64,000 nucleotides of DNA from a virus (taxonomy: Duplodnaviria; Heunggongvirae; Uroviricota; Caudoviricetes). The notes beneath the pieces were generated by a model that did not search any database, had not been told where the DNA came from, and was given only the letters and a program-made list of their open reading frames with translations. Shown here in pieces: positions 1 through 61,504 of this stretch (positions are counted from its first letter, which is position 1; every line of letters starts with the position of its first letter). Made by a program: the position numbers and the translations under genes. The stretch covers positions 5,850-69,849 of IMG/VR virus record IMGVR_UViG_3300014043_000003; one strand, written 5' to 3'.

Positions 1-294
1 TCGGGTACTCGTGATTTCCCATTTCGTACATGAAAGCCTCCTCAGCGAAGGCCTCATCCTTTTTGATGAGCTCGCGCAGCTCCGCCAAGTGGTCCCTGTT
101 CATCCACGCGCGGACCTGTTCGGCATCCTTGCGCAGATAGAACATTCCTTCTGCTTTGTAGAGCTGATCCGTGTCAGCCGCGGTCAGTCCTCTCTTTTCC
201 ATCTCCTCGATAAGCTGATCATCAGAGAAGGCGAAGAACACCGGCAGACTGTCCATCTCTGCCCTGAGCTGATCTCTGTATTCCTTGTATGTCA
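1..294 (-). CDS. Hypothetical protein, 3' part only (gene runs off the window start)
   Basis: Minus-strand ORF starting at an ATG at about 294 (MTYKEYRDQLRAEMDSLPVFF...) and continuing past position 1. It is not in the ORF track because it is truncated. No recognisable motif. Confidence 0.35.
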
Positions 295-1372: not shown

Positions 1373-1690
1373 AATAGTACCTCCCATATTCCGTCCCGCA
1401 AGTGCCTTTCGCTTCTCTCTGAATGGCACGAGGCATTTTCAGCTCCAAGAAAAAAGCCCCCTGCCAGCGTCATAATAATAACACAGGCAAAGGGCTTTTT
1501 CAAGTGTAAATATACACAAATAATAGTGTTTGATTTTGGTGATTTTATCCGGGATTTCGGCGGTTTCGCTGATCGACGGTTTGGCCGCATCTTAAGACTA
1601 ACTTGCAACTAACTTGCTTCAGTTGCAACCATGTTGCAAGTTGGCCTTGTATAACTATCGTGCATATTTTGCGAAAAGGCGCACGATAGG

Positions 1691-2647
1691 TCAAGCGATC
1701 CTCTCGATTTTCCGGTAATTTTCGAGAGAACTGTACGCTTTTTCGATGAACCTCCCGAACTCCGGGTTCTCACGGAACAGCTTGTAGAGGCTCTCGCCGC
1801 TGTTGTCGGTGATTGCGTCCATCATCTTTTCTGAGTTAGAGAAAGCTCCATATTCAGCGAGGGCAAACATGATGTGAAGCCAAAACGGTTCATTTACGAA
1901 CTGCTTTTCTGTGCTGTATCCGCACAAAGCGCCCAGGATCTCTTCGTACTCCATCTCAACACCACACTGGGCGATAATGTTTATAATGGAGTGAAAGTCC
2001 TCGTTCATTTTTTGTGCCCTATATCGGATTGCACTTTTGGAGCCCTCGGGGTTTCCGTTTTTGGCCGCCATCAGGTAGGTCTTGCTGCCTTCTGCGACGC
2101 AGATACCGCCGGCCCTTCGAAGGTCCTTTCTTGTATCGTCGATGATCGCGTTTGCTTTCTTCGCGCTTCTTGGGTACAGAGACGAAACGCTCGTGTTAAA
2201 GCTCTCCATGTTGACCTGCCCAGTGACTTTCAGCTCCTCAATGAGCCGACTGCGCAGTTTGTTTACGATCTCATCCTTCTCCTCTTCAGCCAATTTGTCT
2301 CCAATTTCCCGCTTGTAGACTTGGTCGATCGTGAGTCCCTGGGAGCACATACGTATATAGTGGTTTCGCTCTTTCTCGCCCATCTCATAGAGCCATTTTG
2401 CAACGGCACGCTGTTCCTTCCTGCGAAGCTGCTCAATGCCGTCAAGCTCCGCCACTCTCACAAGGGCCTCTGCTTCGAGCTGTGCATATTGGACAGACAT
2501 CTCGTGGAAAGTCTCGTTTGCCTTGAGTGCTTCCCCGAGAGCGTTGATTTTGTTGACTTTCTTGATGAGGTCTCGCAGATCAACAGTCTGCCGTATACTG
2601 TCCAGATCGAACATTCTGTCCCTGATCGCAATCTCGTTATTTGCCAT
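1691..2647 (-). CDS. Hypothetical protein (318 aa) immediately adjacent to CRISPR array 1
   Basis: Long clean minus-strand ORF with no recognisable catalytic motif. It ends next to a 9-bp-stem hairpin at 1653-1689 and starts 27 bp from the degenerate terminal repeat of array 1. Confidence 0.5.
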   Translation of the reverse strand: MANNEIAIRDRMFDLDSIRQTVDLRDLIKKVNKINALGEALKANETFHEMSVQYAQLEAEALVRVAELDGIEQLRRKEQRAVAKWLYEMGEKERNHYIRMCSQGLTIDQVYKREIGDKLAEEEKDEIVNKLRSRLIEELKVTGQVNMESFNTSVSSLYPRSAKKANAIIDDTRKDLRRAGGICVAEGSKTYLMAAKNGNPEGSKSAIRYRAQKMNEDFHSIINIIAQCGVEMEYEEILGALCGYSTEKQFVNEPFWLHIMFALAEYGAFSNSEKMMDAITDNSGESLYKLFRENPEFGRFIEKAYSSLENYRKIERIA

Positions 2648-2673
2648 ACTACCTCCTTGATTTATATATTCTT

Positions 2674-2903
2674 ACTCTGACTTTGCACGCTTGCGCGAGT
2701 CACATCCGGGAATTGGAGGACGACAAGCGCCAAATGATTCTCTGACTCTGCACGCTTGCGCGAGTCACATCTATGACGCTGGCGGGGGCCTTTTTTCTTG
2801 GGTTTCTCTGACTCTGCACGCTTGCGCGAGTCACATCTGGAAACGCCCCTGCAAAGATTGATGGAAGCCATCTCTGACTCTGCACGCTTGCGCGAGTCAC
2901 ATC
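2674..2903 (-). CRISPR. CRISPR array 1: four 33-bp repeats (consensus on the + strand TCTCTGACTCTGCACGCTTGCGCGAGTCACATC) and three spacers of 32-33 bp
   Basis: Repeats at 2674-2706 (degenerate, 2 mismatches), 2739-2771, 2805-2837 and 2871-2903, with unique spacers between them. The strand was inferred from the degenerate repeat at the low-coordinate (trailer) end and a conserved leader-like flank (GGCAAATTTGCACAA) at 2904+. The orientation is not certain. Confidence 0.8.
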
Positions 2904-3135
2904 GGCAAATTTGCACAATATCTATCGCGCCGCTTTATGCAATTCGCGCTTTATTCGCAGTTGCGCAAGCAATGCCTACTCTGTAGACCACGCCTTTTTC
3001 GTGGAACACTACCGGCTTCTTACGCCTATTTCGGTGCGAACGCATAGGCTTTTACTCATTGTTTACGGTTCGCACCTCGCCGGGGTCAGCCTCCGGCGAT
3101 TTATATTACTTTACTTCTTTCACATTGTCTCTTCT
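2904..3135. ncRNA. Conserved structured non-coding module flanking array 1 (candidate leader and/or tracrRNA-like scaffold), ending in a hairpin plus T-run
   Basis: It is homologous to 3437-3605 and 5296-5466: a shared AGCAAAnnGCACAA start, a shared 'caccg.tttct.acgcctatttcg' block and a stem that covaries between copies (ccacg/cgtgg here versus ctacg/cgtag in copy 2). It ends with TCGCCGG-loop-CCGGCGA followed by a T-rich tract at about 3102-3135 (on the + strand). Confidence 0.35.
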
Positions 3136-3139
3136 GTTC

Positions 3140-3436
3140 ATATCATTTGGCGCACTCGCGCCGGTTGCGTCGGGGAGAGATAAGGAAACACCCCACCGGG
3201 ACCTTCTCTGGCCCTGCGCACTCGCGCCGGTTGCGTCGGAAATCCCAGAAAAGGAGGCCGACGATGGCATCCTCTGGCCCTGCGCACTCGCGCCGGTTGC
3301 GTCGGCCCATCCAGCAGGTGCTGCTGGCCTTTAAGGACTCTGGCCCTGCGCACTCGCGCCGGTTGCGTCGGAGGAGATCCGGGAGGAGCTGAGCGCCACA
3401 GATCTCTGGCCCTGCGCACTCGCGCCGGTTGCGTCA
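3140..3436 (-). CRISPR. CRISPR array 2: five 33/34-bp repeats (consensus on the + strand CTCTGGCCCTGCGCACTCGCGCCGGTTGCGTCGG) and four spacers of 32-33 bp
   Basis: Repeats at about 3140-3172 (the first 10 nt are degenerate), 3206-3238, 3272-3304, 3338-3370 and 3404-3436 (the last ends ..GCGTCAGC). Spacers are all unique. The repeat is related to but distinct from the array-1 and array-3 repeats (shared CTCTG..CTGC..GCGC core). Confidence 0.85.
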
Positions 3437-3605
3437 GCAAAAGTGTACAAAGACAGTTACGCTATTTTGTGCATTCAGACGCGAGTCTCAGTTGCGTGAG
3501 CGATAACTACCATGTGGTCCTACGCGGAGTTCGTAGAAACACCACCGTTTTCTCACGCCTATTTCGCTCGGCTTTCGTCGAGCATCGCTGGAGCCAGGTG
3601 CCAGC
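3437..3605. ncRNA. Conserved structured module between array 2 and the 3' end of the effector gene (candidate leader and/or tracrRNA-like RNA)
   Basis: It starts AGCAAAAGTGTACAAAG. It contains a repeat-like fragment GTCTCAGTTGCGTG, a stem CTACG-cggagtt-CGTAG that covaries with copy 1, and a perfect 8-bp hairpin ATCGCTGG-agccaggtg-CCAGCGAT followed by TCATTTATTT at 3571-3605. That hairpin has a + strand terminator-like geometry and lies directly after the effector stop codon on the opposite strand. Confidence 0.35.
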
Positions 3606-3616
3606 GATTCATTTAT

Positions 3617-5089
3617 TTACCCCGCTATAAGCGAGGGATAAAATGCTGCGTGGAGTATGTTAATGGCTGCGTTTACATCCTTGTCGTGAACAGTTTTGCA
3701 CTTTGGGCATCGCCAGTAGCGCGGAACGATGGATTTTCTTTCCATGATATGCCCGCAAGTGTGGCACGTTTTCACCGAAGGAAACCATTCATCGACGGCT
3801 ACGACCTCTCTCCCGTGCCATTTGGCCTTATATCTGATATTGTCCAAGATTGTACTGATTGCCGAGTCCGCGAGAACTCTCGCTGTGTGCTTGCTCTGAA
3901 ATTTTTTCACGACATCCAGCGTCTCTATGCCGATCCTTCCGTTTTCCTGAACAATTTTCCTGCTGATGATATGATTTTCGTTGGCTCGCCTGCGCGCGAT
4001 TTTTCTTTCCAGTTTTGCGAGCTTGAGTCTTGTCCTCTCATAGGTTTTCGACGGGCGGATGGTCTTATCTTGCACGTGTGCCGCACGGAACTGCTCATTT
4101 GCCCACCCCCAACGGCGCGAAAGTCTCCTGCTCACGCGCCTTTTATGCCTCTGCTCCTGCTCCTTAAACCGTTTGTTCTGGAACTTCTCGTTATCAGAAA
4201 GAGTAACCAGGTCCTTTGCTCCCATCTTTATGCCGACTTCCTTGCCCACTTTTTTGCTCATCGGCTTGTAGACCGCATTGTGCAGCTTGAAGCAAATGTA
4301 GTAGCTGTCGCAGTTATCCTTGCTGATCGTAATGGTTATCTGCTTGCTTTTGTTCTCTTGGAGCCATTCAGGAAACTGCATTTTTCCTTCTGGGTCAAAA
4401 CGGATCTCCTGATTCCAGCCTTTGATTTTGCAGGTGCTTTCTTTGCCTTCGTCACCACAGTCGCTCAGCCTTGCAAGGCGCGCATACATTGCATTGCGAT
4501 TACTTTTTGTGAAAAATTTCGAGCATGGTTCTTGGTATGTATAGCTCATTCGAGGCTTTTCCGAGTTGTAATAGCTTGGCGCTCGGAGGCCTTTCATCTC
4601 TTCTTTAAGTGCATCTATTACTTTTTGGTCTGCTCCCCTTGAGCGAAGATCTCTGATCCTCTTTCTGAGGTGCTTTTTAAGCTCGATCATCTGTTTAGTT
4701 CGTTCAACTGGCATTACTACGTGCTTTCCGTCTTTTTTTCTGGGGGCCGAGAGCGCCCTTGCAAGATCGTACTTAATGCACCCTGCATTTCCTGTGATTG
4801 CATAGGCAGGAACCTCTTTAACGATGGGGTTTTCCTCCGTTATTTTTGCCTTCCACTCTTTTGCCGTGAGATAGCCAAAATTTGGGTAGTGAGGGTATTC
4901 GCCATTTTCATTCGGCTTATCATCCTGCTTTGAAGCTGCTGGATCATTCAGGACGGCGTACAGGCTGCAGTTGTAGGCAATACGGACACCGATGAGTATT
5001 CTGTCGATTTGCTCTCTCTGCTTTTTGTTCGGATAGAGCCGACATTTCATCGTGTAGTCCTCAATAAAATCGTATGTCATCTTTTCCAT
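3617..5089 (-). CDS. TnpB/Cas12f-like RuvC-domain RNA-guided effector candidate (490 aa). Its RuvC-I aspartate is replaced by lysine, while the RuvC-II glutamate, RuvC-III aspartate and the zinc finger are retained
   Basis: The N-terminus MKCRLYPNKKQREQIDRILIGVRIAYN matches the TnpB/OrfB N-terminal motif. The central segment ..VGIKMGAKDLVTLSDNE aligns to the TnpB 'GIDLGLK.LA.LSDG' motif with K at the catalytic-D position (the codon ATA-AAG was checked on the DNA). The segment RRLSRRWGWANEQFRAAH...RIGIETLDVVKKF carries the RuvC-II glutamate. The C-terminus CHTCGH...RCPKCKTVHDKDVNAAINIL is the zinc finger plus the RuvC-III D-x-N-A-A-x-N-I motif. The gene is flanked by CRISPR arrays on both sides. 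Alternative starts at 5080 (MTYDF, AAGGAG ribosome-binding site 9 nt upstream) or 5050 (MKCRLYP). Confidence 0.8.
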   Translation of the reverse strand: MEKMTYDFIEDYTMKCRLYPNKKQREQIDRILIGVRIAYNCSLYAVLNDPAASKQDDKPNENGEYPHYPNFGYLTAKEWKAKITEENPIVKEVPAYAITGNAGCIKYDLARALSAPRKKDGKHVVMPVERTKQMIELKKHLRKRIRDLRSRGADQKVIDALKEEMKGLRAPSYYNSEKPRMSYTYQEPCSKFFTKSNRNAMYARLARLSDCGDEGKESTCKIKGWNQEIRFDPEGKMQFPEWLQENKSKQITITISKDNCDSYYICFKLHNAVYKPMSKKVGKEVGIKMGAKDLVTLSDNEKFQNKRFKEQEQRHKRRVSRRLSRRWGWANEQFRAAHVQDKTIRPSKTYERTRLKLAKLERKIARRRANENHIISRKIVQENGRIGIETLDVVKKFQSKHTARVLADSAISTILDNIRYKAKWHGREVVAVDEWFPSVKTCHTCGHIMERKSIVPRYWRCPKCKTVHDKDVNAAINILHAAFYPSLIAG

Positions 5090-5128
5090 CTCCTTGCCGT
5101 AGCCTTGTTTTGTGGTTAAAAGCCGGGT

Positions 5129-5295
5129 CTCTCAGTTCCCGCACCTGCGCGGGTTGCGTCGCATACGTGGGTGCCTTTGCTCGGATGCTCAAAGGCTCTC
5201 AGTTCCCACACCTGCGCGGGTTGCATCGGAACTAAAAGAACTGGAGGAGGATCTGTAAAATGCTCTCAGTTCCCACACCTGCGCGGGTTGCATCA
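5129..5295 (-). CRISPR. CRISPR array 3: three 33-bp repeats (consensus on the + strand CTCTCAGTTCCCACACCTGCGCGGGTTGCATCG) and two 34-bp spacers
   Basis: Repeats at 5129-5161, 5196-5228 and 5263-5295 (the last ends ..GCATCAGCAAAA, the same terminus as array 2). The array sits about 40-50 bp upstream of the effector start codon, on the same strand if the minus orientation is correct. Confidence 0.75.
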
Positions 5296-5466
5296 GCAAA
5301 ACCGCACAAATCAGTGAGGAGCTTTTTGTGCAATCCGTGCATGGTGGAGATTGACCGAGCAATAGCTACTTTGTCTGCTGGCCTACGGCCATATTGACTA
5401 CCGCTTTCTCGATCTTTTCGGCTTACGCCGCGGCGTGGCTGAGTCTCACGCCGTTTTTATTCTTGA
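5296..5466. ncRNA. Conserved structured module flanking array 3 (candidate leader and/or tracrRNA-like RNA), ending in a hairpin plus T-run
   Basis: It starts AGCAAAACCGCACAAATC and shares the 'ctaccgctttctcgatcttttcgg' block with the other two copies. It ends with CGGCGTG-gctgagtct-CACGCCG followed by TTTTTATT at about 5436-5466. Confidence 0.3.
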
Positions 5467-5491
5467 CAAAACTATTTTTGCACACTATAAT
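5463..5491 (+). promoter_or_regulatory. Consensus sigma70 promoter TTGACA-N17-TATAAT driving the divergent HTH gene
   Basis: TTGACA at 5463-5468, a 17-nt spacer, then TATAAT at 5486-5491. An AGGAGGTG ribosome-binding site lies at about 5512-5519 and a TTG start at 5525. Confidence 0.7.
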
Positions 5492-5524
5492 TTGTGTATA
5501 TAGACCACCATAGGAGGTGATATT

Positions 5525-5773
5525 TTGGCGATTATATGGAAAGTTGACCCTGTCGAGCTTCTGAAATCAGCGGGCTACAGCTCGTACCGCATCCGGCAGG
5601 AGAAGATTTTTGGTCAACAAACGTACCGCAACCTTCGTGAGCGGCGGCCAGTCGGTTTTGATGCTCTGAATACAATCTGCAAACTCACAAAAAAGAAACC
5701 CGGTCAACTCCTTGATTACGTCCCTGACAGTAAGCTCCCTCCAAAGGAGCAGGAGACTATCCCTGCTCCTTGA
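5525..5773 (+). CDS. Small HTH (Cro/CI-type) DNA-binding protein, paralogue of 6600..6833
   Basis: 82 aa from a TTG start with a strong ribosome-binding site. The ...YRNLRERRPVGFDALNTICKLTKKKPGQLLDYV segment resembles the ENIDTICSILNCQPGTLIRF HTH of its paralogue. It is transcribed divergently from the CRISPR locus. Confidence 0.55.
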   Translation: MAIIWKVDPVELLKSAGYSSYRIRQEKIFGQQTYRNLRERRPVGFDALNTICKLTKKKPGQLLDYVPDSKLPPKEQETIPAP

Positions 5774-5951
5774 TGCGGTCGAGCGCGAGGTAAATCAACG
5801 CGAGCGATTTGTCCGGATCTCCGTTCTCGGCGAGGAGGGCTGCGCCCTCCAGAAGAGCTTCGAGCTCAGCGACGAGCTCGCTCTGATCGTTCTGATCGTC
5901 ATGGATGACAGTCGTGCTATGCACCGTTACGGTGCTGTGCGTTGGCTTCAT
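5757..5951 (-). CDS. Hypothetical small protein (64 aa), paralogue of 24185..24382
   Basis: AGGAGG ribosome-binding site upstream. The C-terminus ALLLAENGDPDKSLALIYLALDRIKEQG resembles ALLFFENGKEDDSIACMYMAGDRIKEYW of the 24185 copy. Confidence 0.55.
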   Translation of the reverse strand: MKPTHSTVTVHSTTVIHDDQNDQSELVAELEALLEGAALLAENGDPDKSLALIYLALDRIKEQG

Positions 5952-38114: not shown

Positions 38115-38547
38115 CTTGTTCCTCCAGATATTTTTCCCATGTCCGGCGCATCGGTGGATCTTTGGTCCAGCCCCATGTGCGCTCGTATTTTTCTGTCAGC
38201 TCCTTGGCATGAAGCGCAGCTTCGCGGGCGGTGTAGAAAACCTTCGTCCCAATATCAGACAGCTTGTGATAGCGCGGAGTAGGAGAACTGTAGTCTCCAT
38301 TTGGTATTGGGCCGCACATTACCAGTTCTACGTATCCACCCTCAAAATAGCTCTCAATAGGGGCAGATGTAACTACATACTCCAAACGCACCAAGACGCT
38401 GCCTTTTTCGTAATACCTGTTTTCATGTACATCCCACATCACGGTCCCGATCGGCGGCCTTTTCTGTCTTGCTCCCATACGCCCCCCTATCAGATAGCCA
38501 CGGCCTGCATCAGGGCGGCCATGTCTACGTAAGTAACCTGGCACCAC
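38089..38547 (-). CDS. Hypothetical protein
   Basis: 152-aa ORF; the start is uncertain. Confidence 0.35.
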   Translation of the reverse strand: MVPGYLRRHGRPDAGRGYLIGGRMGARQKRPPIGTVMWDVHENRYYEKGSVLVRLEYVVTSAPIESYFEGGYVELVMCGPIPNGDYSSPTPRYHKLSDIGTKVFYTAREAALHAKELTEKYERTWGWTKDPPMRRTWEKYLEEQDGRTEENH

Positions 38548-41177
38548 TCCGGCATGTTGGCCTTAACCACAGCCGTCGCCATCGGCGGGCACACCGCGTT
38601 CCCGCAGCGCGCGACCTGTGCCGTCTTCGGGTAATCCTTCCCCGTGTAATCCTTATCAATGACATAATCGTCTGGGAATCCCATTGCCGAGTACAGCTCC
38701 CGCGGTGTCAGCATTCTCATAGAAATATCGCTCAGGTAATACCATGTCCCACCGAGATTCAACAGTAGGATCTCATCATCAGCCAGCTTATAATCGCAAT
38801 ACTTGTTCAGGAGCGCGCGGATCTCCGGCCAGTGGCCCAAAGACTGTGTTCCCGGCGCGTATTTCTCGATGCGCACCGAGGCAACCGCAAACTCCCCGCC
38901 GCCGGCCGTGACCGTCTGCATAGGCTCCGCAGGGATTTGCCCAAGATTGTCGCCCTTGAATTTGACGACGTGAACAGCAGTCAGGGCCTCCCGGTCATGC
39001 CCGGTAACTGTGTGCATCGGCTCCCGAAGATCCAGAGGGACCCCGTTGCCGTAATACTCGGTCAGATGAGCAGCCGTCAGGCTGTATCTGTTGGAGGAAT
39101 CCACGGTCGGAAGAGGATCGCGCAGGCCGTTTGCTCTGACTGTTTCGGTCTGCTCCGTGTGGTACTGGATCAGGTTTGTTGCGACAAGGCCCTTCGTGCA
39201 TTTCTGGGTTATTGTCCCAAGCGGTGTATCTGTCCCAGCGACATGTCCGCCTCCAGAGTGGTTACACTCCGCAATGAACGGCTTACCGCTCTTGATGGTG
39301 AACTTATCCACGCCGCGGATGATTCTCCGCATAGTGTTGTTCGCAAGAGGCCGGACGGCGTTGACGCCGTATTTCTCCTTGAGTTGTTCTTTTGTATCGA
39401 ATACGGAGTACATCGGAACGCTCCAGTTGATGATCTCCGCGGCGGAGCGCCACGGCTTATACTTGCCGCTCTTGACCTCCTCGCTGTCTACAGGCGCGTG
39501 TGTCCGTTCAGGCCACACAACGGGCTTTCCGTCGCACCTTGCGACAAGGACGAAGCGCTTGCGCGTGGTAGGGGCGCCATAGTCGGCTGCCACCAGCTCA
39601 CGGTGTTCGACCTGATACCCCAGGTCTTGGAGTTGCTTGAGCCACTTTTTGAAGGTCTCCCCAGCCTTTTTCTTGATCGGTTTTCCCTTGCGGACGGGTC
39701 CCCAGGTCTGGAACTCCTCCACGTTTTCGAGGATGATGACGCGAGGCCGAACAGTACCGGCCCAGCGAAGCACGATCCATGCGAGGCCCCGGATATTCCG
39801 GTCCACGAGGGCGCTGCCCTTGGCCTTGGAGAAGTGCTTGCAGTTGTGGACGATGACTCCCTCAGCAATGTAGCTTTCGTCCTTATCGACGCTGATGTTA
39901 TAAAACTCTTTCTGATTGCCGGTGACGGTCGTCTCTTTGATCGGCGCCCAGAGGACGCCGTCTTCTGTGAAGGTCTGCCTATGTTTCTCCTCAACAGCGC
40001 GGCGCCACTTGACCCTGAATTGGTCTCTGGTGTTGACGACTCGGCCCTCTATTGGCCGTCCAGGAGCATCGGCGGCATACACCATAGGGGAAAACCCGAC
40101 CGTACCAGCAAGCGTTTTGAGGCCATACGCGAGCTTCTTGGAGACTGTAGTTGCCTCCACCAGTCCATCCTTCTCATAACCGTCCGCGCTGAGGTAGCCC
40201 GCGAGGAACGCTCCACGCAATCTCATACTGGAGCCGAACAGCCACGCCGGGATTTTCTTCTCTCCCGCCAAATGGCCGAAGTTCTCGCGGAGCCACTGGA
40301 CAAGGCTTCGATTGCTGCATGTAAACTGCCCGCCTGTCCTGACCTTCCTGAAATGCCATGCAAGCTCTCCATCCTTGCATCGCAGCCCCGTTCGCGGCCA
40401 CATATCCAGATTCTTCTGCAGATATTCGATGTCCTGCGGTCCGCAGCAGATGACAAGCTCACCACGCTTTTCGCTCAGGCGACTCCATCCATCACCGACG
40501 TATCTGCCGGCGAGCCACAAGAGGCGCTCGTCAATCGGAAGGACAGAGCACTTGCCGCTCGACTTTGTCATCAGGGGAATCGGGAGCTGTTCAATCTCGA
40601 TCGGCATTCCCCAATAATCCTTTGGCGTCAGCTCTTTGGCCTTCTTCCAGACCGGGGCACTGTATTGGTGATCGTAGTTTCTGCGGTCATTGTTCCACAC
40701 CTCCGAGCGCTCTCTGACATAGAACGGATGCCCGGTGCTGCACACGATTCCCGGATGCCCATAGCCTTTGACGATCATCTCATCTCTGAGCGTCTTCATT
40801 GTGGCCGTGACCTTTCTCCACCTGTTCTTGTGGGTGAGGACGCAGTCTCCCTCGCGGATCTCCTCAATGGGCTTGTAGCCATCTGTGGTGAGGATCAGCG
40901 TCCCCGCTTCAAAACAGTCAGGGGAAAACCACGCGAGGCCAACAGGCCGCCCAGCGCACACCTCCGTCGGGTCAACATCCCAAACCGAGGCTTGGAGGTG
41001 CAGCGTATAGGGGTGATTCGTCTTGTGCATGAGTATGGCCGCGGGATTGTGATTGATCGCTATGGTAACAGGGCGGCCGGTTGCCAGCTCTATCCCGGTA
41101 GAGGCACCGCCACCGCCGGCGAAGTTGTCCACGATAATCTCATCAAGGAGATTGATCTGTGCGTTTTCTCGGCTCAT
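38490..41177 (-). CDS. dcm: DNA (cytosine-5)-methyltransferase interrupted by an intein with a LAGLIDADG homing-endonuclease domain
   Basis: Motif I ..VDNFAGGGGAS, motif VI ..VIILENVEEF, motif X ..GNAVCPP. The catalytic PC motif is split: FSPD|C FEAGTLILTTDGYKPIEEIREGDCVLT (intein block A) ... IVCSTGHPFYV (block B) ... LWLAGRYVGDGWS and FLAGYLSADGY (two LAGLIDADG motifs) ... EGVIVHN|CKHFSKAKG (intein C-terminal HN plus the +1 Cys). Confidence 0.8.
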   Translation of the reverse strand: MSRENAQINLLDEIIVDNFAGGGGASTGIELATGRPVTIAINHNPAAILMHKTNHPYTLHLQASVWDVDPTEVCAGRPVGLAWFSPDCFEAGTLILTTDGYKPIEEIREGDCVLTHKNRWRKVTATMKTLRDEMIVKGYGHPGIVCSTGHPFYVRERSEVWNNDRRNYDHQYSAPVWKKAKELTPKDYWGMPIEIEQLPIPLMTKSSGKCSVLPIDERLLWLAGRYVGDGWSRLSEKRGELVICCGPQDIEYLQKNLDMWPRTGLRCKDGELAWHFRKVRTGGQFTCSNRSLVQWLRENFGHLAGEKKIPAWLFGSSMRLRGAFLAGYLSADGYEKDGLVEATTVSKKLAYGLKTLAGTVGFSPMVYAADAPGRPIEGRVVNTRDQFRVKWRRAVEEKHRQTFTEDGVLWAPIKETTVTGNQKEFYNISVDKDESYIAEGVIVHNCKHFSKAKGSALVDRNIRGLAWIVLRWAGTVRPRVIILENVEEFQTWGPVRKGKPIKKKAGETFKKWLKQLQDLGYQVEHRELVAADYGAPTTRKRFVLVARCDGKPVVWPERTHAPVDSEEVKSGKYKPWRSAAEIINWSVPMYSVFDTKEQLKEKYGVNAVRPLANNTMRRIIRGVDKFTIKSGKPFIAECNHSGGGHVAGTDTPLGTITQKCTKGLVATNLIQYHTEQTETVRANGLRDPLPTVDSSNRYSLTAAHLTEYYGNGVPLDLREPMHTVTGHDREALTAVHVVKFKGDNLGQIPAEPMQTVTAGGGEFAVASVRIEKYAPGTQSLGHWPEIRALLNKYCDYKLADDEILLLNLGGTWYYLSDISMRMLTPRELYSAMGFPDDYVIDKDYTGKDYPKTAQVARCGNAVCPPMATAVVKANMPEWCQVTYVDMAALMQAVAI
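39843..40916 (-). other. Intein (about 358 aa, Hint plus LAGLIDADG endonuclease) inserted at the catalytic Cys of the C5-methyltransferase
   Basis: Boundaries inferred from Cys1 (aa 88) through His-Asn (aa 444-445) with Cys +1. Coordinates are approximate. Confidence 0.65.
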
Positions 41178-54736: not shown

Positions 54737-55042
54737 TTACTCAGCATAGAGAATCTCGCTCATTTCCAGGATGCATTCCGTGAGGACTTCGTTTTCCTCA
54801 CGGAGTTCGCGAAGCGTACGCTCAAGGTCGCTCTCCTCAACAAAAGTGAACCAGTAGCGTCCGTCGATGCTGGCGCAGCGCTGTACGCTTGCATTCACGT
54901 ATACGATACTGCCGTTGTCGGTCTCCACCGTCACCTGACTGAGATCGGCGGGGAAGGTCGGCTCCACAGGGACAATCAGACTGTCGCCGTTCTGCTCCGC
55001 CGTGAGGGTTGTGCCGTTTTTGAAGATGATTCTGGCTTCCAT
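54737..55042 (-). CDS. Hypothetical protein downstream of the reverse transcriptase
   Basis: Start taken at MEARIIFKNG. It overlaps the reverse-transcriptase 3' end by about 66 bp. Confidence 0.35.
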   Translation of the reverse strand: MEARIIFKNGTTLTAEQNGDSLIVPVEPTFPADLSQVTVETDNGSIVYVNASVQRCASIDGRYWFTFVEESDLERTLRELREENEVLTECILEMSEILYAE

Positions 55043-56202
55043 TTCAATTCCTTTCCGAAGAGCTCCATATACAGACTCTTCATGTGCTTGATTTGGTCTT
55101 TTGACATGATCCTTGAAAAATCGCCCATCCATGATCGAGCCGCCTGCTCAATCTCCGGATAGGCGATCTTTCCGTTGTCCATGAGACGCTTATACGCTTT
55201 CAGTTTCCTTCTTTCGCGGGTTACTGATTGTGGATTGATCCTCCGGACAACCTGCCCTGTTTCGGTAAGACTGTACTTGATCTGTAGAAACTTGTAAGTG
55301 CCGGAGAGCTTGACGATCCTTGTCTTGCTTTCATTGATAAACAGGCCAAGAGAATCCGCTTCGGCTTTCACCCCATTGATGATGGACTTCAATTCCTCAA
55401 GGTCTTTGCAGATGATATACATGTCATCCATATACCTGCCGTAATACTTGCATCTGCGGACAATCTTCACGTAATTATCAATGGGTGTCGGAAAGAAAAC
55501 GCCGATGTCCTGCGACACCTGATCCCCTATGTCTACAGACTTCGGCATGAATTTTTCTCCCGTCCGATTCGCCTTTGGGACGTTCTTGTAGTATTCAACA
55601 GAGTTGAATTTCCGATTCATGCAGGAGGCAAATTCATTGTCGCTCATATACGATACATCGACCTCGAACGTACGGAGTATCTTGTCCATAAACCATTGGG
55701 CTTCGCTGCTGATCTTCGGATACACCTGCTCTTTGATCTTGTCATGCTGGATGTTGTCATAGAACTTTGAAAAGTCAACGAAACCAACATATCCATCATT
55801 CGTGCGGTGTTTTAACCAGAAGTTATGCAAATCCTTCTCGAACATCATTCTTGTGAAGCTGATGCCCTTTCCCTTCTGACTGGCACCGTTGTTATGAATC
55901 AGATACGGATGCAGCGCCGATGTAAGCTCGCCGTCACATAACGCATGGCGAACGACCCTGTCACGGACCTTTACGCCATGGATGTGCCTGATCTTCCCTC
56001 TCTCATTCAGAGTAAACTCGACGCCCGGAAGGGTTTCGTAGGTGCGAGATTCCATCTCATGTTTCAGCTTGACAATCTCCGACAGAAAATCCCTTTCAAA
56101 AAGCTGAGGCTCTTCTTTCCATGCGCTCCCCTTCATGGATGCAAGAAATGAATCGTAGAGCAAATTCAGATCACACAGTCTATTCTCGCTCATATTTCGC
56201 AT
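54976..56202 (-). CDS. Diversity-generating retroelement reverse transcriptase
   Basis: RT motifs ..YGRYMDDMYII.. (YxDD) and ..VDIGDQVSQDIGVFF.. (the DGR-specific I/VGxxxSQ). Strong GGAGGT ribosome-binding site. It lies directly 3' (in the minus direction) of the template repeat. Confidence 0.85.
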   Translation of the reverse strand: MRNMSENRLCDLNLLYDSFLASMKGSAWKEEPQLFERDFLSEIVKLKHEMESRTYETLPGVEFTLNERGKIRHIHGVKVRDRVVRHALCDGELTSALHPYLIHNNGASQKGKGISFTRMMFEKDLHNFWLKHRTNDGYVGFVDFSKFYDNIQHDKIKEQVYPKISSEAQWFMDKILRTFEVDVSYMSDNEFASCMNRKFNSVEYYKNVPKANRTGEKFMPKSVDIGDQVSQDIGVFFPTPIDNYVKIVRRCKYYGRYMDDMYIICKDLEELKSIINGVKAEADSLGLFINESKTRIVKLSGTYKFLQIKYSLTETGQVVRRINPQSVTRERRKLKAYKRLMDNGKIAYPEIEQAARSWMGDFSRIMSKDQIKHMKSLYMELFGKELKWKPESSSKTAQPSRRSRTATV

Positions 56203-59372: not shown

Positions 59373-61427
59373 TCAGGACGTACCTTCAAGGGCAGCCACT
59401 TTCGCTTCGAGCGTAGCGACTCTGTCTGCAAGAGCGAGGAGCTCCGCGTAAGTTGCCATCTCGATACCTGCCCCGGTGGTCTTGTTGATCCAGACCTGAT
59501 TGGTTGTAGCGGTCGGCTGCGTGTCAGACACGATGACCTCGCTCTCAAGCTGGTTAAGAGCGATAGCGACAGCTTTGTTCTGGACCGGGTTTGTGGACGA
59601 AGTGGACAAGGCGGAATCAACAACATTTCGTGTAGCTCCGGCCTCAATCCCGAGAAGTTTCGCCTTTTCCTCGCTTGTGTAGTCGCTGCTGGAGAGTCCC
59701 TTCCCGGAGATGGCCGTGACCTTCGTGTTGACCTCTGCCTGGAGAGCTTGCAGCTCCGCGTAGGTAGCGACAGAAGACGCCGATCCGAGTGTTTCGGCCA
59801 CCCAGAGCTGGTTCGTTGTCGCCGTGGGCTGTATGTCAGAGACAATGAGCTCACTGTCGAGCACGTCAAGGGCGGCCTTGACGACCTTGTTCTGGACAGG
59901 ATTCTCCGATGTGGTAGACAGGGAAGAATCCACCACGGTCTTGTTGGCCTCCGCTTCGATACCGGACAGCTTGTTCTTCTCTGTGGTCGTGTAGTTATTG
60001 TCCGTATGGACATAGCTGGCATCGACCGGGAAGTTGCTGTCGTTCGTGAGGTCAGAGGTCTTCGTCGGGACAGTGACATCGACCGCCTTGTTCGTGACCG
60101 TGAGCGCGGTCCCGTTGACCTTGACGGCTTCAATGACGTTCACATCCGCGCCGGAATCCACGCCGTCCAGCTTGCTCTTGTCAGATGCGCTCATGAGTCC
60201 GGCGGCCGAGGTAGTCGCTTCGGAATACGTGGTGTCCGATCCGGGGATGCCGAGTCCGGTGATGTCGCTCTTCTCGACAGCGGTTGCGGCGGTGACGTGT
60301 CCCTCGCTGTTGGTCGTGATCTTATACAGGCCGCTGGCAAAGGCCGATCCCTTGTTGGTTACGCCGTGGGCGTAGGCAGAAGCGCCGTAATCGCCGCGGA
60401 ACGCGGTGGAAGACGTGGTGCCAAGAGCGAGGTCTGACGCGATGAATACGTAAGCCGAACCGCTCCAGCGGTAGCACTTGTTCGTGGATGTATCGAGATA
60501 AATCTTGCCACTCTCGCCGGTAGCTGGAAAAGCAGACTGGCCGTTATACTCCACAATGTCGTCCACGTAGGACGGGAGCTGGCTGGACGGAACCTTGCCG
60601 TTCGCATCGAGCTCCGCAAGACCGTTCGCCGCACCCTTGAGGCTTGTGTCGAGCTTGCCGCTGATGTCCTGATGGGCGGTGATAACGGTGCCGAGATCCA
60701 CGACGCCGCTTGTGCCCTTGGAAGCTCCGTTCATGGTGATGCCGGTGATCGTGCCGGTATTGCCTGTGTAGCCCTTGTTCTCTATGGCCGCGTCCAGCAC
60801 AGCCGCGGAGATCAGCTTTGCCTCTGTAGCTGTCCCTGCCTCGGCCTCGGCTTCGGTCATCCCGGAATAGGTGGTGTCGGTCTCAGGCGGCGTATATCCG
60901 AGGGCGTCTGTGACGTTCTTCTTGGTCAGCTCGCCGCGGATATCTGCGGAGGACTTGTCCTCTACATTGCCAAGGCCGATATTGCCCTTGGTGATGTTGA
61001 CGTTTCCGGTCCTATAGCTTTCTTCGGCGCTGCCTTTGACGCCTGTGATGCTGTTGACCTGAGCGCCGCTGGCGATACCTGCGAGCTTGTCCTTTTCTAC
61101 CGTGGTGTAGTTGTTGTCTGTGTGGACATAGTTTGCGTCCGACACATAGTTGCCGTCGTTCGTCAGGTCGCTCAGCTTGGTGGGCACCGTGACGTTAACG
61201 GACTTCGACGCGACAGGCAAAGCGGTTCCATTGACGGCGACAGACTCAATGACGTTGACCTGAGCGCCGCTGGCGATATTGCCGAGCTTGGTCTTCTCAT
61301 CTGTCGTGTAGTCGTTTGTGGACAAGCCCTTTCCGGACTCTTTATCCACCTTGCCGTTCAGCAGAGTCTTGATCTTCCCGAGGAAATACCCGAGTTTCTC
61401 AAGGTCCACTAAATTGTGAAATGCCAT
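59373..61427 (-). CDS. Tail fibre protein with repeated K-L-x-G-I-x-x-G-A-Q-V-N modules
   Basis: 684 aa with repeated ..KLGNIASGAQVNVIESV.. and ..KLAGIASGAQVNSITGV.. units. Gly/Ser/Thr/Asn-rich, fibre-like. Confidence 0.65.
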   Translation of the reverse strand: MAFHNLVDLEKLGYFLGKIKTLLNGKVDKESGKGLSTNDYTTDEKTKLGNIASGAQVNVIESVAVNGTALPVASKSVNVTVPTKLSDLTNDGNYVSDANYVHTDNNYTTVEKDKLAGIASGAQVNSITGVKGSAEESYRTGNVNITKGNIGLGNVEDKSSADIRGELTKKNVTDALGYTPPETDTTYSGMTEAEAEAGTATEAKLISAAVLDAAIENKGYTGNTGTITGITMNGASKGTSGVVDLGTVITAHQDISGKLDTSLKGAANGLAELDANGKVPSSQLPSYVDDIVEYNGQSAFPATGESGKIYLDTSTNKCYRWSGSAYVFIASDLALGTTSSTAFRGDYGASAYAHGVTNKGSAFASGLYKITTNSEGHVTAATAVEKSDITGLGIPGSDTTYSEATTSAAGLMSASDKSKLDGVDSGADVNVIEAVKVNGTALTVTNKAVDVTVPTKTSDLTNDSNFPVDASYVHTDNNYTTTEKNKLSGIEAEANKTVVDSSLSTTSENPVQNKVVKAALDVLDSELIVSDIQPTATTNQLWVAETLGSASSVATYAELQALQAEVNTKVTAISGKGLSSSDYTSEEKAKLLGIEAGATRNVVDSALSTSSTNPVQNKAVAIALNQLESEVIVSDTQPTATTNQVWINKTTGAGIEMATYAELLALADRVATLEAKVAALEGTS

Positions 61428-61504
61428 AGTTCATCCCCCCTGAAAAAAGTGAGGGCACATACCCCAAAATGGGGTATGCACCCTCGCGGATGTTTGATAA
61501 ATGC

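What the first reader, a model, noticed from the sequence alone, without database searches (positions are those of the whole stretch)
2674..5466. Phage-borne miniature CRISPR locus: three arrays flanking a 490-aa TnpB/Cas12f-like effector, with no adaptation genes
Three short arrays (4, 5 and 3 repeats of 33 bp; spacers of 32-34 bp) surround a single ORF. That ORF has a full TnpB/Cas12f architecture: the OrfB N-terminal motif, RuvC-I, RuvC-II and RuvC-III segments, and a CxxC..CxxC zinc finger. No cas1, cas2 or cas4 gene is present anywhere in the 64 kb. The locus sits inside what is otherwise a temperate phage genome, between an ArdC antirestriction gene and the immunity/replication region. 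At 490 aa the protein is at the small end of known type V effectors and barely larger than a transposon TnpB. The combination of phage-encoded, multi-array and ultra-compact makes this the best candidate in the window for an undescribed type-V-like system.
Basis: partly seen in the sequence, partly recalled or inferred. Interest (0 to 1): 0.9.

Follow-up and report, generated by a model that had tools for sequence, protein, structure and literature searches.

The report
Phage mini-CRISPR with probably dead nuclease
A temperate gut phage carries a tiny TnpB-like CRISPR system of the recently described TranC kind, with three guide-RNA modules and a guide aimed at a sibling phage's anti-defence promoter. 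Its cutting site has lost an essential residue, so it probably silences rivals rather than cutting them.

Summary
There are three arrays of 4, 5 and 3 repeats. Repeats are 32 nt and spacers 33-35 nt. They flank a 490-aa TnpB-like gene (3617-5089, minus strand) in a temperate phage, and no Cas1 or Cas4 was seen among ORFs of at least 109 aa.

The system is not undescribed. The effector's closest solved relative is LaTranC (sequence E 1e-60, TM 0.76), the type member of the TranC transposon-CRISPR intermediates published in 2025.

1. Each array abuts a 165-200-nt tracrRNA/reRNA-like scaffold on the gene strand. A 5-bp pseudoknot links the scaffold's first hairpin loop to the 3' end of the repeat. 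It covaries perfectly (75/75 pairs in 15 modules) and differs between the three modules here, so each array matches its own scaffold.
2. The RuvC-I catalytic Asp is Lys (K288), alone among 109 family members. The equivalent LaTranC D253A mutant is inactive.
3. One spacer matches, with a 5'-TTC PAM, the promoter of the ardC anti-defence operon of a sibling phage. The phage's own copy carries seed mismatches, and the sibling's array targets this phage in return.

Best reading: a TranC locus used in conflict between phages, probably by DNA binding without cleavage. It is a new variant of a known kind.

The parts
3617..5089 (-). Effector gene, 490 aa. It is a TranC-like (TnpB-derived) RNA-guided protein with an HTH_OrfB N-terminus, a RuvC split by a CxxC..CxxC zinc finger, and lineage-specific basic helical inserts at residues 117-123 and 132-169.
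   Evidence: Pfam and NCBIfam. Best solved relative LaTranC, E 1e-60. AF2 model pLDDT 94.6. Foldseek TM 0.76 to 9jfq. Inserts.
4226..4228 (-). Codon AAG = K288, at the position of the RuvC-I catalytic Asp (VGIKMG here, GxDVG in the family).
   Evidence: Asp in 108 of 108 other family members. It corresponds to LaTranC D253, whose D253A mutant is inactive (alignment; paper). Codon read.
5295..5459 (-). Scaffold of module 3 (tracrRNA/reRNA-like), upstream of the gene. Its first hairpin H1 is at 5432-5452. The loop 5-mer CTCAG (5439-5443) pairs with CTGAG near the 3' end of the array-3 repeat.
   Evidence: Alignment A3 and helix counts. Coordinates.
5129..5294 (-). Array 3: 3 repeats (gene-strand text GATGCAACCCGCGCAGGTGTGGGAACTGAGAG) and 2 spacers. 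It ends 39 nt before the effector's start codon.
3436..3611 (-). Scaffold of module 2. It starts 5 nt after the effector's stop codon. H1 is at 3586-3606. The loop 5-mer CTGGC (3592-3596) pairs with GCCAG of the array-2 repeat.
3140..3435 (-). Array 2: 5 repeats (GACGCAACCGGCGCGAGTGCGCAGGGCCAGAG) and 4 spacers. The distal repeat, 3140-3171, is degenerate.
2904..3103 (-). Scaffold of module 1. H1 is at 3078-3098. The loop 5-mer CTGAC (3085-3089) pairs with GTCAG of the array-1 repeat.
   Evidence: A single-sequence fold reproduces H1, H2 and H3 with z = -4.0.
2675..2903 (-). Array 1: 4 repeats (GATGTGACTCGCGCAAGCGTGCAGAGTCAGAG) and 3 spacers. Spacer A1s2 (2772-2805) is the only spacer with an identified target.
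1438..1474 (+). The phage's own copy of the A1s2 protospacer: TTC at 1438-1440, then 34 nt. It matches 29 of 34 positions. The mismatches are at guide positions 2, 3, 4, 17 and 22. It lies directly downstream of the -10 box of the ardC-operon promoter.
   Evidence: The sibling phage L182 has the same site with only 2 mismatches and the same TTC.
1475..1503 (-). Sigma-70-like promoter of the ardC operon (TTGAAA, 17 nt, TATTAT, with a TG before the -10). It is conserved in related phages.
   Evidence: Promoter scan. Comparison of ardC upstream regions in L182-L188.
1691..2647 (-). 318-aa gene of unknown function directly after array 1. It is a conserved neighbour of phage TranC loci. Whether it belongs to the system is uncertain.
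   Evidence: Homologues sit directly after the downstream array in L163 (38% identity, 9e-74) and L165 (31%, 9e-33). The gene is absent from L182 and L183. No family or fold assignment.

Best explanation
**What it is (well supported).** This is a TranC-type system, the intermediate between TnpB and Cas12, carried by a temperate phage.

The minus strand encodes three guide-RNA modules and one effector, in this order:
- scaffold 3 and array 3;
- the effector gene;
- scaffold 2 and array 2;
- scaffold 1 and array 1.

Each scaffold is a reRNA/tracrRNA-like RNA of 165-200 nt and is fused directly to the first repeat of its array. The first unit of each module is therefore a natural single-guide RNA. 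The later repeat-spacer units must use the scaffold in trans.

A 5-bp pseudoknot joins the loop of the scaffold's first hairpin to the 3' end of the repeat. Its sequence differs between the three modules, so each array is tied to its own scaffold.

Guides read 5'-repeat-spacer-3'. Targets carry a 5'-TTC PAM, as for LaTranC.

**What it is for (supported by one spacer and by reciprocal evidence).** It serves conflict between closely related temperate phages.
- Spacer A1s2 matches the -10 to +28 region of the promoter of the ardC anti-restriction operon of a sibling phage.
- The resident phage's own copy has mismatches in the PAM-proximal seed.
- The sibling phage's TranC array carries spacers against this phage.

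**How it acts (inferred).** The RuvC-I catalytic Asp is Lys, and further departures from family-conserved residues cluster around the RuvC site. The effector is therefore most likely unable to cut DNA. It would work as an RNA-guided DNA-binding roadblock, for example shutting off an incoming rival's anti-defence operon. This resembles TldR, Cas12m and Cas12c in mode.

Spacer acquisition must depend on something outside the locus. It could also be very rare, for instance by recombination.
For: **Family.**
- LaTranC is the best solved relative by sequence (E 1e-60) and by fold (TM 0.76-0.77). The model has pLDDT 94.6.
- About 105 relatives of 30-46% identity exist in metagenomes.

**Architecture is conserved in relatives.**
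- The scaffold follows the stop codon and the arrays are co-oriented with the gene.
- L163 and L165 have an array on each side of the gene. L014 has two arrays downstream. L007 has three: one upstream and two downstream.
- Each array within a locus has its own repeat variant.

**RNA structure, on alignment A3 (15 modules).**
- 86% of cells are paired, against 30-50% when partners are slid.
- 94 cells carry double-sided changes, against 34 in shuffles.
- The pseudoknot is 75/75 Watson-Crick with 9 different 5-mers.

**Strand.**
- G-U pairs outnumber A-C pairs 69 to 16 on the gene strand.
- The degenerate repeats lie at the distal ends of the arrays.
- TTC lies 5' of all four protospacers on the guide-sense strand. 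This equals the LaTranC PAM.

**Targets.**
- A1s2 matches L182 positions 823-856 with 2 mismatches. It matches the phage's own site 1441-1474 with 5.
- The promoter lies at 1503-1475.
- L182 spacers hit window 19-51 and 1218-1253, and the TranC gene of L183.
- Related phages carry AcrVA2-like genes in the ardC operon.

**Loss of nuclease.**
- K288 is unique among 109 sequences.
- LaTranC D253A is inactive.
- The protein departs from 12 of 81 family-conserved columns. These include M289, N300, K396, S399 and K470 around RuvC.
- The ORF, the zinc finger and all three matched RNA modules are nevertheless intact.
Against: - The nuclease-dead inference rests on sequence alone, and mainly on one residue.
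- The lineage has no close relatives: the next protein is 46% identical.
- The contigs that carry the identical gene are probably from one biosample (L001 and L190 from run SRR948119; L002 and L189 from SAMN02302785). Conservation of K288 over time therefore cannot be shown.
- A recently inactivated allele on its way to decay would look similar.
- Eight of the nine spacers have no identified target. 'Promoter targeting' therefore rests on a single case.
- The sibling phage's spacers hit coding regions.
- The consensus scan found no minus-strand promoter in 2400-5800. It found promoter-like and terminator-like sites on the plus strand instead. I read the terminator-like sites as hairpin H1 seen from the other strand.
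- There are no RNA or expression data.
Confidence: 0.55

Rival explanations
1. This is an ordinary, cutting TranC interference system. K288 is tolerated or compensated, and the effector still cleaves TTC-flanked DNA of rival phages, as LaTranC does.
For: - Everything except residue 288 looks like an active TranC: E389, D471, the zinc finger and a confident fold.
- All 108 relatives keep the triad.
- Relocated catalytic residues have caused false 'dead' calls in TnpB surveys.
- The sibling phage's spacers hit coding regions, which fits cleavage.
Against: - The RuvC-I Asp is invariant in the family. Its Ala mutant is inactive in LaTranC, and the same is reported for TnpB and Cas12 generally.
- To my recollection, the known relocation concerns the RuvC-II Glu and not this Asp.
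- No lineage-specific acidic residue appears nearby. D293 is also the consensus residue in relatives that keep the Asp.
- A Lys puts a positive charge where Mg2+ binds.
Confidence: 0.2
2. This is a decaying relic. The effector was inactivated recently, and the locus no longer does anything for the phage.
For: - K288 is seen in a single lineage, possibly in a single biosample.
- The protein is the most divergent full-length member at conserved columns.
- Most spacers have no known target.
Against: - The 1.47-kb ORF is intact and the predicted fold is very confident.
- All three scaffold-repeat pseudoknots are still perfectly matched, although they have diverged from each other.
- D to K needs two nucleotide changes.
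- The other departures cluster near RuvC and are not spread at random.
- The phage's own copy of the A1s2 target carries mismatches in the PAM-proximal seed, which suggests selection against self-recognition.
Confidence: 0.2
3. The arrays and tails are transcribed from the plus strand, antisense to the gene, as promoter, array, tail and terminator units. The guide polarity would then be spacer-repeat-scaffold.
For: - Plus-strand promoter-like sites lie at 2641-2670 and 3119-3146.
- Plus-strand terminator-like hairpins lie at 3077-3099 and 5430-5454.
Against: - The 'terminators' are the conserved hairpin H1. Its loop pairs with the repeat.
- G-U pairs would become A-C mismatches on the plus strand (69 against 16).
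- The scaffold follows the stop codon on the gene strand in all relatives examined.
- The 5'-TTC PAM fits only guides of gene-strand sense.
Confidence: 0.03
4. This is an IS200/IS605 or IS607 TnpB transposon inserted in the phage, and the repeats are unrelated to guide RNA.
For: The Pfam and NCBIfam TnpB models match.
Against: - The scores are below the IS200_TnpB and IS607_TnpB equivalog cut-offs.
- No TnpA appeared among the Pfam families listed.
- The repeats pair with the scaffold and covary with it.
- The spacers match phage DNA next to a PAM.
Confidence: 0.02

Closest known systems
TranC (transposon-CRISPR intermediate) systems. The type member is LaTranC from Lawsonibacter (Jin et al., Cell 2025; PDB 9jfo/9jfp/9jfq).
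   Same: - A TnpB-sized effector with the same fold (TM 0.76; sequence E 1e-60).
- Short arrays. The 32-nt repeats here fall in the 32-36 nt range published for clades 3 and 11, and the 3-5 repeats per array fit the published medians of about 5.
- No associated adaptation genes.
- A reRNA-derived scaffold working with CRISPR repeats.
- A 5'-TTC PAM.
- Some members are virus-borne (CauTranC9).
   Different: - Only about 28-33% identical to LaTranC.
- No long C-terminal domain (490 aa against 574).
- RuvC-I Asp replaced by Lys.
- Three scaffold-plus-array modules with mutually different pseudoknot sequences around one gene.
- The clade could not be assigned because the Cell paper is not in the library.
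TldR (TnpB-like nuclease-dead repressors), including the prophage-encoded fliC_P-associated TldRs (Wiegand et al. 2023/2024).
   Same: - A TnpB derivative with a broken RuvC triad, carried by temperate phages.
- A guide aimed at a promoter.
- The phage's own homologous promoter escapes through TAM or seed mutations, the same logic as at 1438-1474 here.
   Different: - TldRs use one fixed omega-RNA-like guide and regulate host genes. This locus has CRISPR arrays with nine spacers and targets a rival phage.
- Most described TldRs have two or more triad mutations or a truncated C-terminus. Here one residue is changed and the zinc finger and RuvC-III are kept.
- Not phylogenetically placed with TldR clades.
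Cas12m and Cas12c (type V effectors that bind but do not cut DNA).
   Same: The proposed mode is the same: crRNA-guided DNA binding that silences mobile elements without cleavage.
   Different: - By my recollection of the literature (not checked here), Cas12m and Cas12c keep an intact RuvC, which Cas12c uses to process its crRNA.
- They are larger and only distantly related (UnCas12m4a E 3e-6; Foldseek TM about 0.4).
Cas12f (type V-F, Cas14).
   Same: - A miniature effector that depends on a tracrRNA.
- PADLOC Cas12f and Cas12u models match at 1e-35 to 1e-37.
   Different: - Closer to LaTranC and TnpB than to any Cas12f structure.
- No cas1, cas2 or cas4 seen.
- The scaffold is fused to the first repeat.
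Virus-borne mini-arrays and phage-encoded type V systems used in conflict between mobile elements (for example Cas12r of Thermus Lalka phages; CauTranC9).
   Same: - A phage-encoded effector with short arrays.
- Spacers against competing mobile elements.
   Different: - Those effectors are active nucleases. CauTranC9 has demonstrated activity, and Cas12r interferes with plasmids and phages.
- Here targeting is reciprocal between sibling temperate phages, and the effector is predicted to be inactive.

Membership tests
TranC | A TnpB-like RuvC/zinc-finger effector that is closer to TnpB and characterised TranC proteins than to established Cas12 subtypes. | tested here: met
   LaTranC is the top hit by sequence (E 1e-60) and by fold (TM 0.76-0.77). 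TnpB structures come next and Cas12f after that. NCBIfam guided_TnpB scores 184.6 against a cut-off of 100.
TranC | A CRISPR array next to the effector. | tested here: met
   Three arrays of 4, 5 and 3 repeats, with 32-nt repeats. Relatives also carry arrays.
TranC | A guide made of a reRNA-derived scaffold (tracrRNA) that works with the CRISPR repeat. | tested here: met
   A conserved scaffold lies next to every array. The helices covary, and a 5-bp loop-repeat pseudoknot is 75/75 Watson-Crick. Physical splitting into two RNAs could not be tested without RNA data.
TranC | Not part of an active IS element (no TnpA, no transposon ends). | tested here: met
   No Y1 or serine transposase appeared among the Pfam families listed for 149 ORFs (list truncated at 25 of 29). 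The IS200_TnpB and IS607_TnpB equivalog cut-offs were not reached. The locus sits at the same place, just upstream of ardC, in the related phage L183 and apparently in the truncated contig L182.
TranC | DNA targeting that depends on a 5' PAM. | tested here: met
   TTC lies 5' of 4 of 4 protospacers on the guide-sense strand. This is in silico evidence only.
TranC | RNA-guided DNA cleavage by an intact RuvC D-E-D triad. | tested here: not met
   The RuvC-I Asp is Lys (K288). The other 108 family members have Asp. Activity itself was not testable.
TldR | Inactivating substitution(s) in the RuvC D-E-D motif of a TnpB-derived protein. | tested here: met
   One of the three residues is changed (D to K). 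The survey that defined TldRs required two or more mutations to avoid false calls.
TldR | A single omega-RNA-like guide encoded next to the gene, with no CRISPR array. | tested here: not met
   Three arrays with nine spacers.
TldR | The guide is complementary to a promoter that it represses. | tested here: inconclusive
   One spacer, A1s2, covers -10 to +28 of the sibling phage's ardC promoter. The other eight targets are unknown, and repression was not testable.
Cas12f (type V-F) | Membership of the Cas12f sequence and structure family, usually with cas1, cas2 and cas4 nearby. | tested here: not met
   PADLOC Cas12f models match (1e-35). Solved Cas12f proteins are nevertheless much more distant (E about 1e-6; TM 0.5-0.56) than LaTranC or TnpB. 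No adaptation genes were seen.
IS200/IS605 TnpB | The equivalog-level score, an associated TnpA, LE/RE ends, and a single omega-RNA overlapping the 3' end of the gene. | tested here: not met
   Score 175.9 against a cut-off of 425. No TnpA was seen. The scaffold starts after the stop codon and is followed by an array.

The most novel reading that the evidence does not exclude
This is a natural, nuclease-dead, CRISPR-array-guided TnpB/TranC derivative. A temperate phage uses it for phage-against-phage CRISPR interference. It would sit on the promoter of a superinfecting sibling's anti-defence (ardC/Acr) operon, leaving the rival exposed to host defences or unable to establish. It would run three mutually orthogonal tracr-array modules from a single effector.
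Probability: 0.4. Interest if true: 0.8.

Novelty: new variant of a known kind. Interest (0 to 1): 0.6.

Why it matters
- **A natural CRISPRi system in a new setting.** If K288 really abolishes cutting while the locus remains functional, this would be a natural CRISPR-array-guided DNA-binding system at the TnpB-to-Cas12 transition, carried by a phage. It would link two known exaptation routes of TnpB: towards CRISPR immunity (TranC and Cas12) and towards RNA-guided repression (TldR, Cas12m).
- **A possible set of orthogonal guide scaffolds.** The covarying 5-bp loop-repeat pseudoknot differs between the three modules of one locus. That suggests a simple specificity code matching each array to its own scaffold. 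This is directly testable. It could supply orthogonal guide scaffolds for the compact TranC editors now being engineered.
- **An ecological picture.** Sibling temperate phages target each other, and one spacer is aimed at the promoter of an anti-defence operon. This suggests how such minimal systems, which lack adaptation genes, are used in gut phage communities.

Tried and rejected
1. **Plus-strand transcription of array and tail.** The promoter and terminator scan suggested it. I rejected it on G-U against A-C counts, the conserved position of the scaffold after the stop codon, and the side on which the PAM lies.
2. **Rfam.** No family matched 2400-5800 at E up to 1.
3. **Spacer targets.** Nothing was found in:
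   - GenBank phages;
   - IMG/VR exact-pattern scans for four spacers;
   - JGI metagenome scans for two spacers;
   - 181 fetched loci at up to 8 mismatches;
   - six-frame peptide comparison with the phage's own genome and its relatives.

   The only target found came from fetching contigs that encode close ArdC homologues.
4. **The genome-contig scan with the family alignment** was swamped by ordinary TnpBs that share the RuvC-III motif. It returned no family member, so the host taxon was not established.
5. **A second anti-repeat for the 5' half of the repeat.** A UUGC/GCAA mini-helix at the scaffold-repeat junction is 80-93% canonical but has no double-sided changes, so I left it out of the model.
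7. **** was a wasted self-comparison.
8. **TranC clade.** The Cell 2025 TranC paper is not in the library, so the clade could not be assigned. The name 'TranC11a' refers to an evolved variant and not to a clade.

Full report
**1. What is there**

Region 2675-5459 holds three short arrays and one gene.
- Array 1 (2675-2903) has 4 repeats.
- Array 2 (3140-3435) has 5 repeats, and the outermost is degenerate.
- Array 3 (5129-5294) has 3 repeats.
- The period is 65-67 nt. The repeat core is 32 nt and the nine spacers are 33-35 nt.
- The three arrays use three different, related repeats.

Between arrays 2 and 3, on the minus strand, lies a 490-aa ORF (3617-5089). It matches:
- Pfam HTH_OrfB_IS605, OrfB_IS605 and Cas12f1-like_TNB;
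- NCBIfam guided_TnpB (3.4e-54, above the cut-off), but not the IS200 or IS607 TnpB equivalog cut-offs;
- PADLOC Cas12u and Cas12f models.

The surroundings are a temperate phage.
- ArdC, DUF7659, Cro/CI-type HTH genes, RusA, a DnaC-like gene, a replisome organiser, SSB and RecT lie in the first 15 kb.
- An integrase, an endolysin, methyltransferases, a reverse transcriptase and tail-fibre-like genes lie elsewhere.
- Scanning all 149 ORFs of at least 109 aa showed no Cas1, Cas4 or Y1 transposase among the families listed. It found only one TnpB-like gene.

**2. The family is already known**

Against all PDB sequences, the best hit is LaTranC (9jfo/9jfq, E 1e-60). TnpB structures follow (1e-25) and Cas12f comes far behind (1e-6).

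An AlphaFold model built on 109 family members is very confident (pLDDT 94.6, pTM 0.89). Its best structural match is again LaTranC (TM 0.76-0.77), then ISFba1 and ISDra2 TnpB, then Cas12f.

TranC systems ('transposon-CRISPR intermediates') were described by Jin et al. (Cell 2025). [quoted passage not shown]

A 2026 preprint reports the following for TranC systems:
- repeats of 32-36 nt in the two best-characterised clades, 3 and 11;
- a median of about 5 repeats per array;
- no associated adaptation genes;
- some members from viral genomes, including an active one from a caudoviricetes genome.

LaTranC uses a 5'-TTC PAM and an sgRNA scaffold of about 157 nt. Its D253A mutant is inactive.

The Cell paper itself is not in the library, so I could not assign a clade.

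**3. The guide-RNA modules**

Each array is followed on the plus strand by a tail of 165-200 nt, and the three tails are alike. The same element occurs next to the arrays of relatives fetched from:
- viral contigs (L007, L008, L011, L014);
- metagenome contigs (L163 and L165, both phage-like; L167, chromosomal).

In all of them the element lies on the gene strand, directly upstream of the first repeat. The downstream copy starts right after the effector's stop codon.

Several relatives also have more than one array, each with its own repeat variant:
- L163 and L165 have one array on each side of the gene;
- L014 has two arrays downstream;
- L007 has three, one upstream and two downstream.

I aligned 15 modules (alignment A3). 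The curated structure has a 5' hairpin H1, a GUGCGAAC/GUUCGCAC stem, a long three-part stem, a hairpin just before the repeat, and a hairpin inside the repeat.
- 86% of cells are paired, against 30-50% when the partners are slid.
- 94 cells carry double-sided changes, against 34 in shuffles.

The most telling element is a pseudoknot between five loop nucleotides of H1 and five nucleotides near the 3' end of the repeat.
- It forms 75 of 75 Watson-Crick pairs with nine different 5-mers.
- In this window the three modules read CTGAC/GTCAG, CTGGC/GCCAG and CTCAG/CTGAG.
- Each array is therefore matched to its own neighbouring scaffold.

The scaffold runs straight into the first repeat (...UUUUGCU|GAYGCAA...). 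The first unit of each module is thus a natural single guide, and the further units need the scaffold in trans. This is what the RNA-splitting model of TranC evolution would predict. Whether the split molecules exist here needs RNA data.

**4. Strand and PAM**

A consensus scan placed promoter-like sites before arrays 1 and 2 on the plus strand. It placed terminator-like hairpins after tails 1 and 3, also on the plus strand. I took this seriously, but four lines of evidence reject it.
- The 'terminators' are hairpin H1 read backwards.
- Across all helices there are 69 G-U pairs and only 16 A-C oppositions on the gene strand. The numbers would swap on the other strand.
- The arrangement relative to the gene is constant across relatives.
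- All four protospacers found (section 5) carry 5'-TTC on the guide-sense strand only if guides are read from the gene strand. TTC is also the LaTranC PAM.

The guides are therefore minus-strand RNAs of polarity 5'-repeat-spacer-3'. Array 3 ends 39 nt before the start codon. Module 3 and the gene are probably co-transcribed (inference).

**5. Targets**

Nothing matched in GenBank phages, IMG/VR or JGI metagenomes.

Within the window, spacer A1s2 matches 1441-1474 at 29 of 34 positions. By my estimate, the chance expectation over the nine spacers is of the order of 1e-7.
- The site begins one base after the -10 hexamer of a sigma-70-like promoter (TTGAAA, 17 nt, TATTAT; 1503-1475).
- That promoter drives the ardC operon.
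- TTC lies at 1438-1440.
- The five mismatches include guide positions 2-4, which form the PAM-proximal seed.

Fetching contigs that encode close ArdC homologues gave a sibling phage, L182, whose ArdC is 98% identical.
- In L182 the same site matches A1s2 with only two mismatches, at guide positions 1 and 22, again next to TTC.
- L182 carries a different TranC gene, cut off by the contig end, and its own 5-repeat array directly upstream of that promoter.
- L182's spacers match this window at 19-51 (DUF7659 gene, 3 mismatches) and at 1218-1253 (ardC, 2 mismatches).
- Another L182 spacer matches the TranC gene of a third relative, L183 (4 mismatches).
- All three of these sites lie next to TTC.

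Closely related temperate phages therefore aim these loci at one another. The promoter-leader region targeted by A1s2 is conserved across the phage group. In some relatives the ardC operon includes AcrVA2-like genes, which supports calling it an anti-defence operon.

**6. The effector has lost a catalytic residue**

In the family alignment, the GxDxG Asp of RuvC-I is Lys in the window protein (VGIKMG). It is Asp in all 108 other sequences. E389, D471 and the four Cys are kept.

By the alignment, this Asp is LaTranC D253.

The codon is AAG, two substitutions away from GAY.

The protein also departs from the family at 12 of 81 columns that are at least 85% conserved.
- Several of these lie around the RuvC centre: M289, N300, K396, S399, K470.
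- That is more than any other full-length member of the family shows.
- The protein also has lineage-specific basic helical inserts.

The rest of the protein is intact: the fold is predicted with high confidence, the ORF is unbroken, and the three RNA modules are still perfectly matched.

The literature is clear for this family that changing any of the three acidic residues abolishes cleavage. It also warns that relocated catalytic residues have produced false calls.

I therefore consider loss of DNA cleavage likely but unproven. If it is true, the protein would act as an RNA-guided DNA binder. The one known target, on a promoter's -10 to +28 region, would suit that mode.

The TldR work describes the same logic in prophages: the guide is aimed at a promoter, and the phage's own copy is protected by TAM or seed changes.

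**7. Caveats**

- The identical gene was found only in contigs that probably derive from one biosample (L001 and L190 from run SRR948119; L002 and L189 from SAMN02302785).
- The nearest other protein is 46% identical. Persistence of K288 cannot be shown, and a recently crippled allele cannot be excluded.
- Eight spacers have no known target.
- No adaptation route is evident. The chromosomal relative differs between two samples by two internal repeat-spacer units, which looks more like deletion than polarised acquisition.
- The host was not identified, because the single genome scan was swamped by ordinary TnpBs.

**8. Verdict**

The locus is a phage-borne TranC system with three cognate scaffold-array modules, used in conflict between sibling phages. 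Its effector is probably nuclease-dead.

It is a new variant of a known kind, and clear experiments could settle whether it cuts or merely binds.

Noticed in passing
window 54976-56202 (- strand), near 59373-63865: A reverse-transcriptase gene (PHROG RT 4.9e-54; Pfam RVT_1) lies a few kb from tail-fibre-like genes. This could be a diversity-generating retroelement acting on the tail fibre.
   Followed up: no
window 5478-5496 (+ strand) and 1508-1526 (- strand); also L182, L183, L184 upstream of ardC: The motif CACTAT(T/A)ATTTGTGTATAT occurs in the strong plus-strand promoter 5463-5491, which drives the Cro/CI-type HTH gene 5525-5773. It occurs again just upstream of the ardC promoter. It is probably an operator for the phage repressor.
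   Followed up: no
window 1691-2647 (- strand); L163 6982-7929; L165 7065-8072: A gene of 315-335 aa and unknown function sits directly after the downstream array in three phage TranC loci whose effectors are only 42-46% identical. The protein family has about 150 clusters at 50% identity and no annotation. Two of 37 members scanned also match HTH-regulator PHROGs. The gene is absent from L182 and L183. It could be an accessory gene or merely a marker of an insertion hotspot.
   Followed up: partly
L186 16274-17299; L188 7476-8483: Related phages carry AcrVA2-like (PF26125) genes in the operon that starts with ardC. This marks the operon as an anti-defence locus and possibly as a source of anti-type-V inhibitors.
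   Followed up: no
L182 1-700; L183 8170-9800: Sibling phages (ArdC 98% and 81% identical) carry a different TranC gene at the same genomic position. L183's effector is 42% identical to the window's, and L182's is cut off by the contig end. Their repeats also differ and the 318-aa gene is missing. The site therefore looks like an exchange hotspot for TranC cassettes. L184 (ArdC 75% identical) has no TranC at all.
   Followed up: partly
L167 6609-6840 compared with L168 6609-6970: The same chromosomal TranC locus, next to rpsB and tsf, has 4 repeats in one sample and 6 in another. The difference is two internal repeat-spacer units.
   Followed up: partly
L003 5723-5929; L004 7531-7610; L006 7661-7747: Some relatives have repeats spaced only 48-55 nt apart, which means spacers of about 16-23 nt. 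This is close to the guide length of TnpB and not to that of a typical CRISPR spacer.
   Followed up: no
window 38490-41177 (- strand): An 895-aa ORF combines DNA-methyltransferase PHROGs with a region resembling the large subunit of anaerobic ribonucleotide reductase. It is an unusual fusion in a phage.
   Followed up: no
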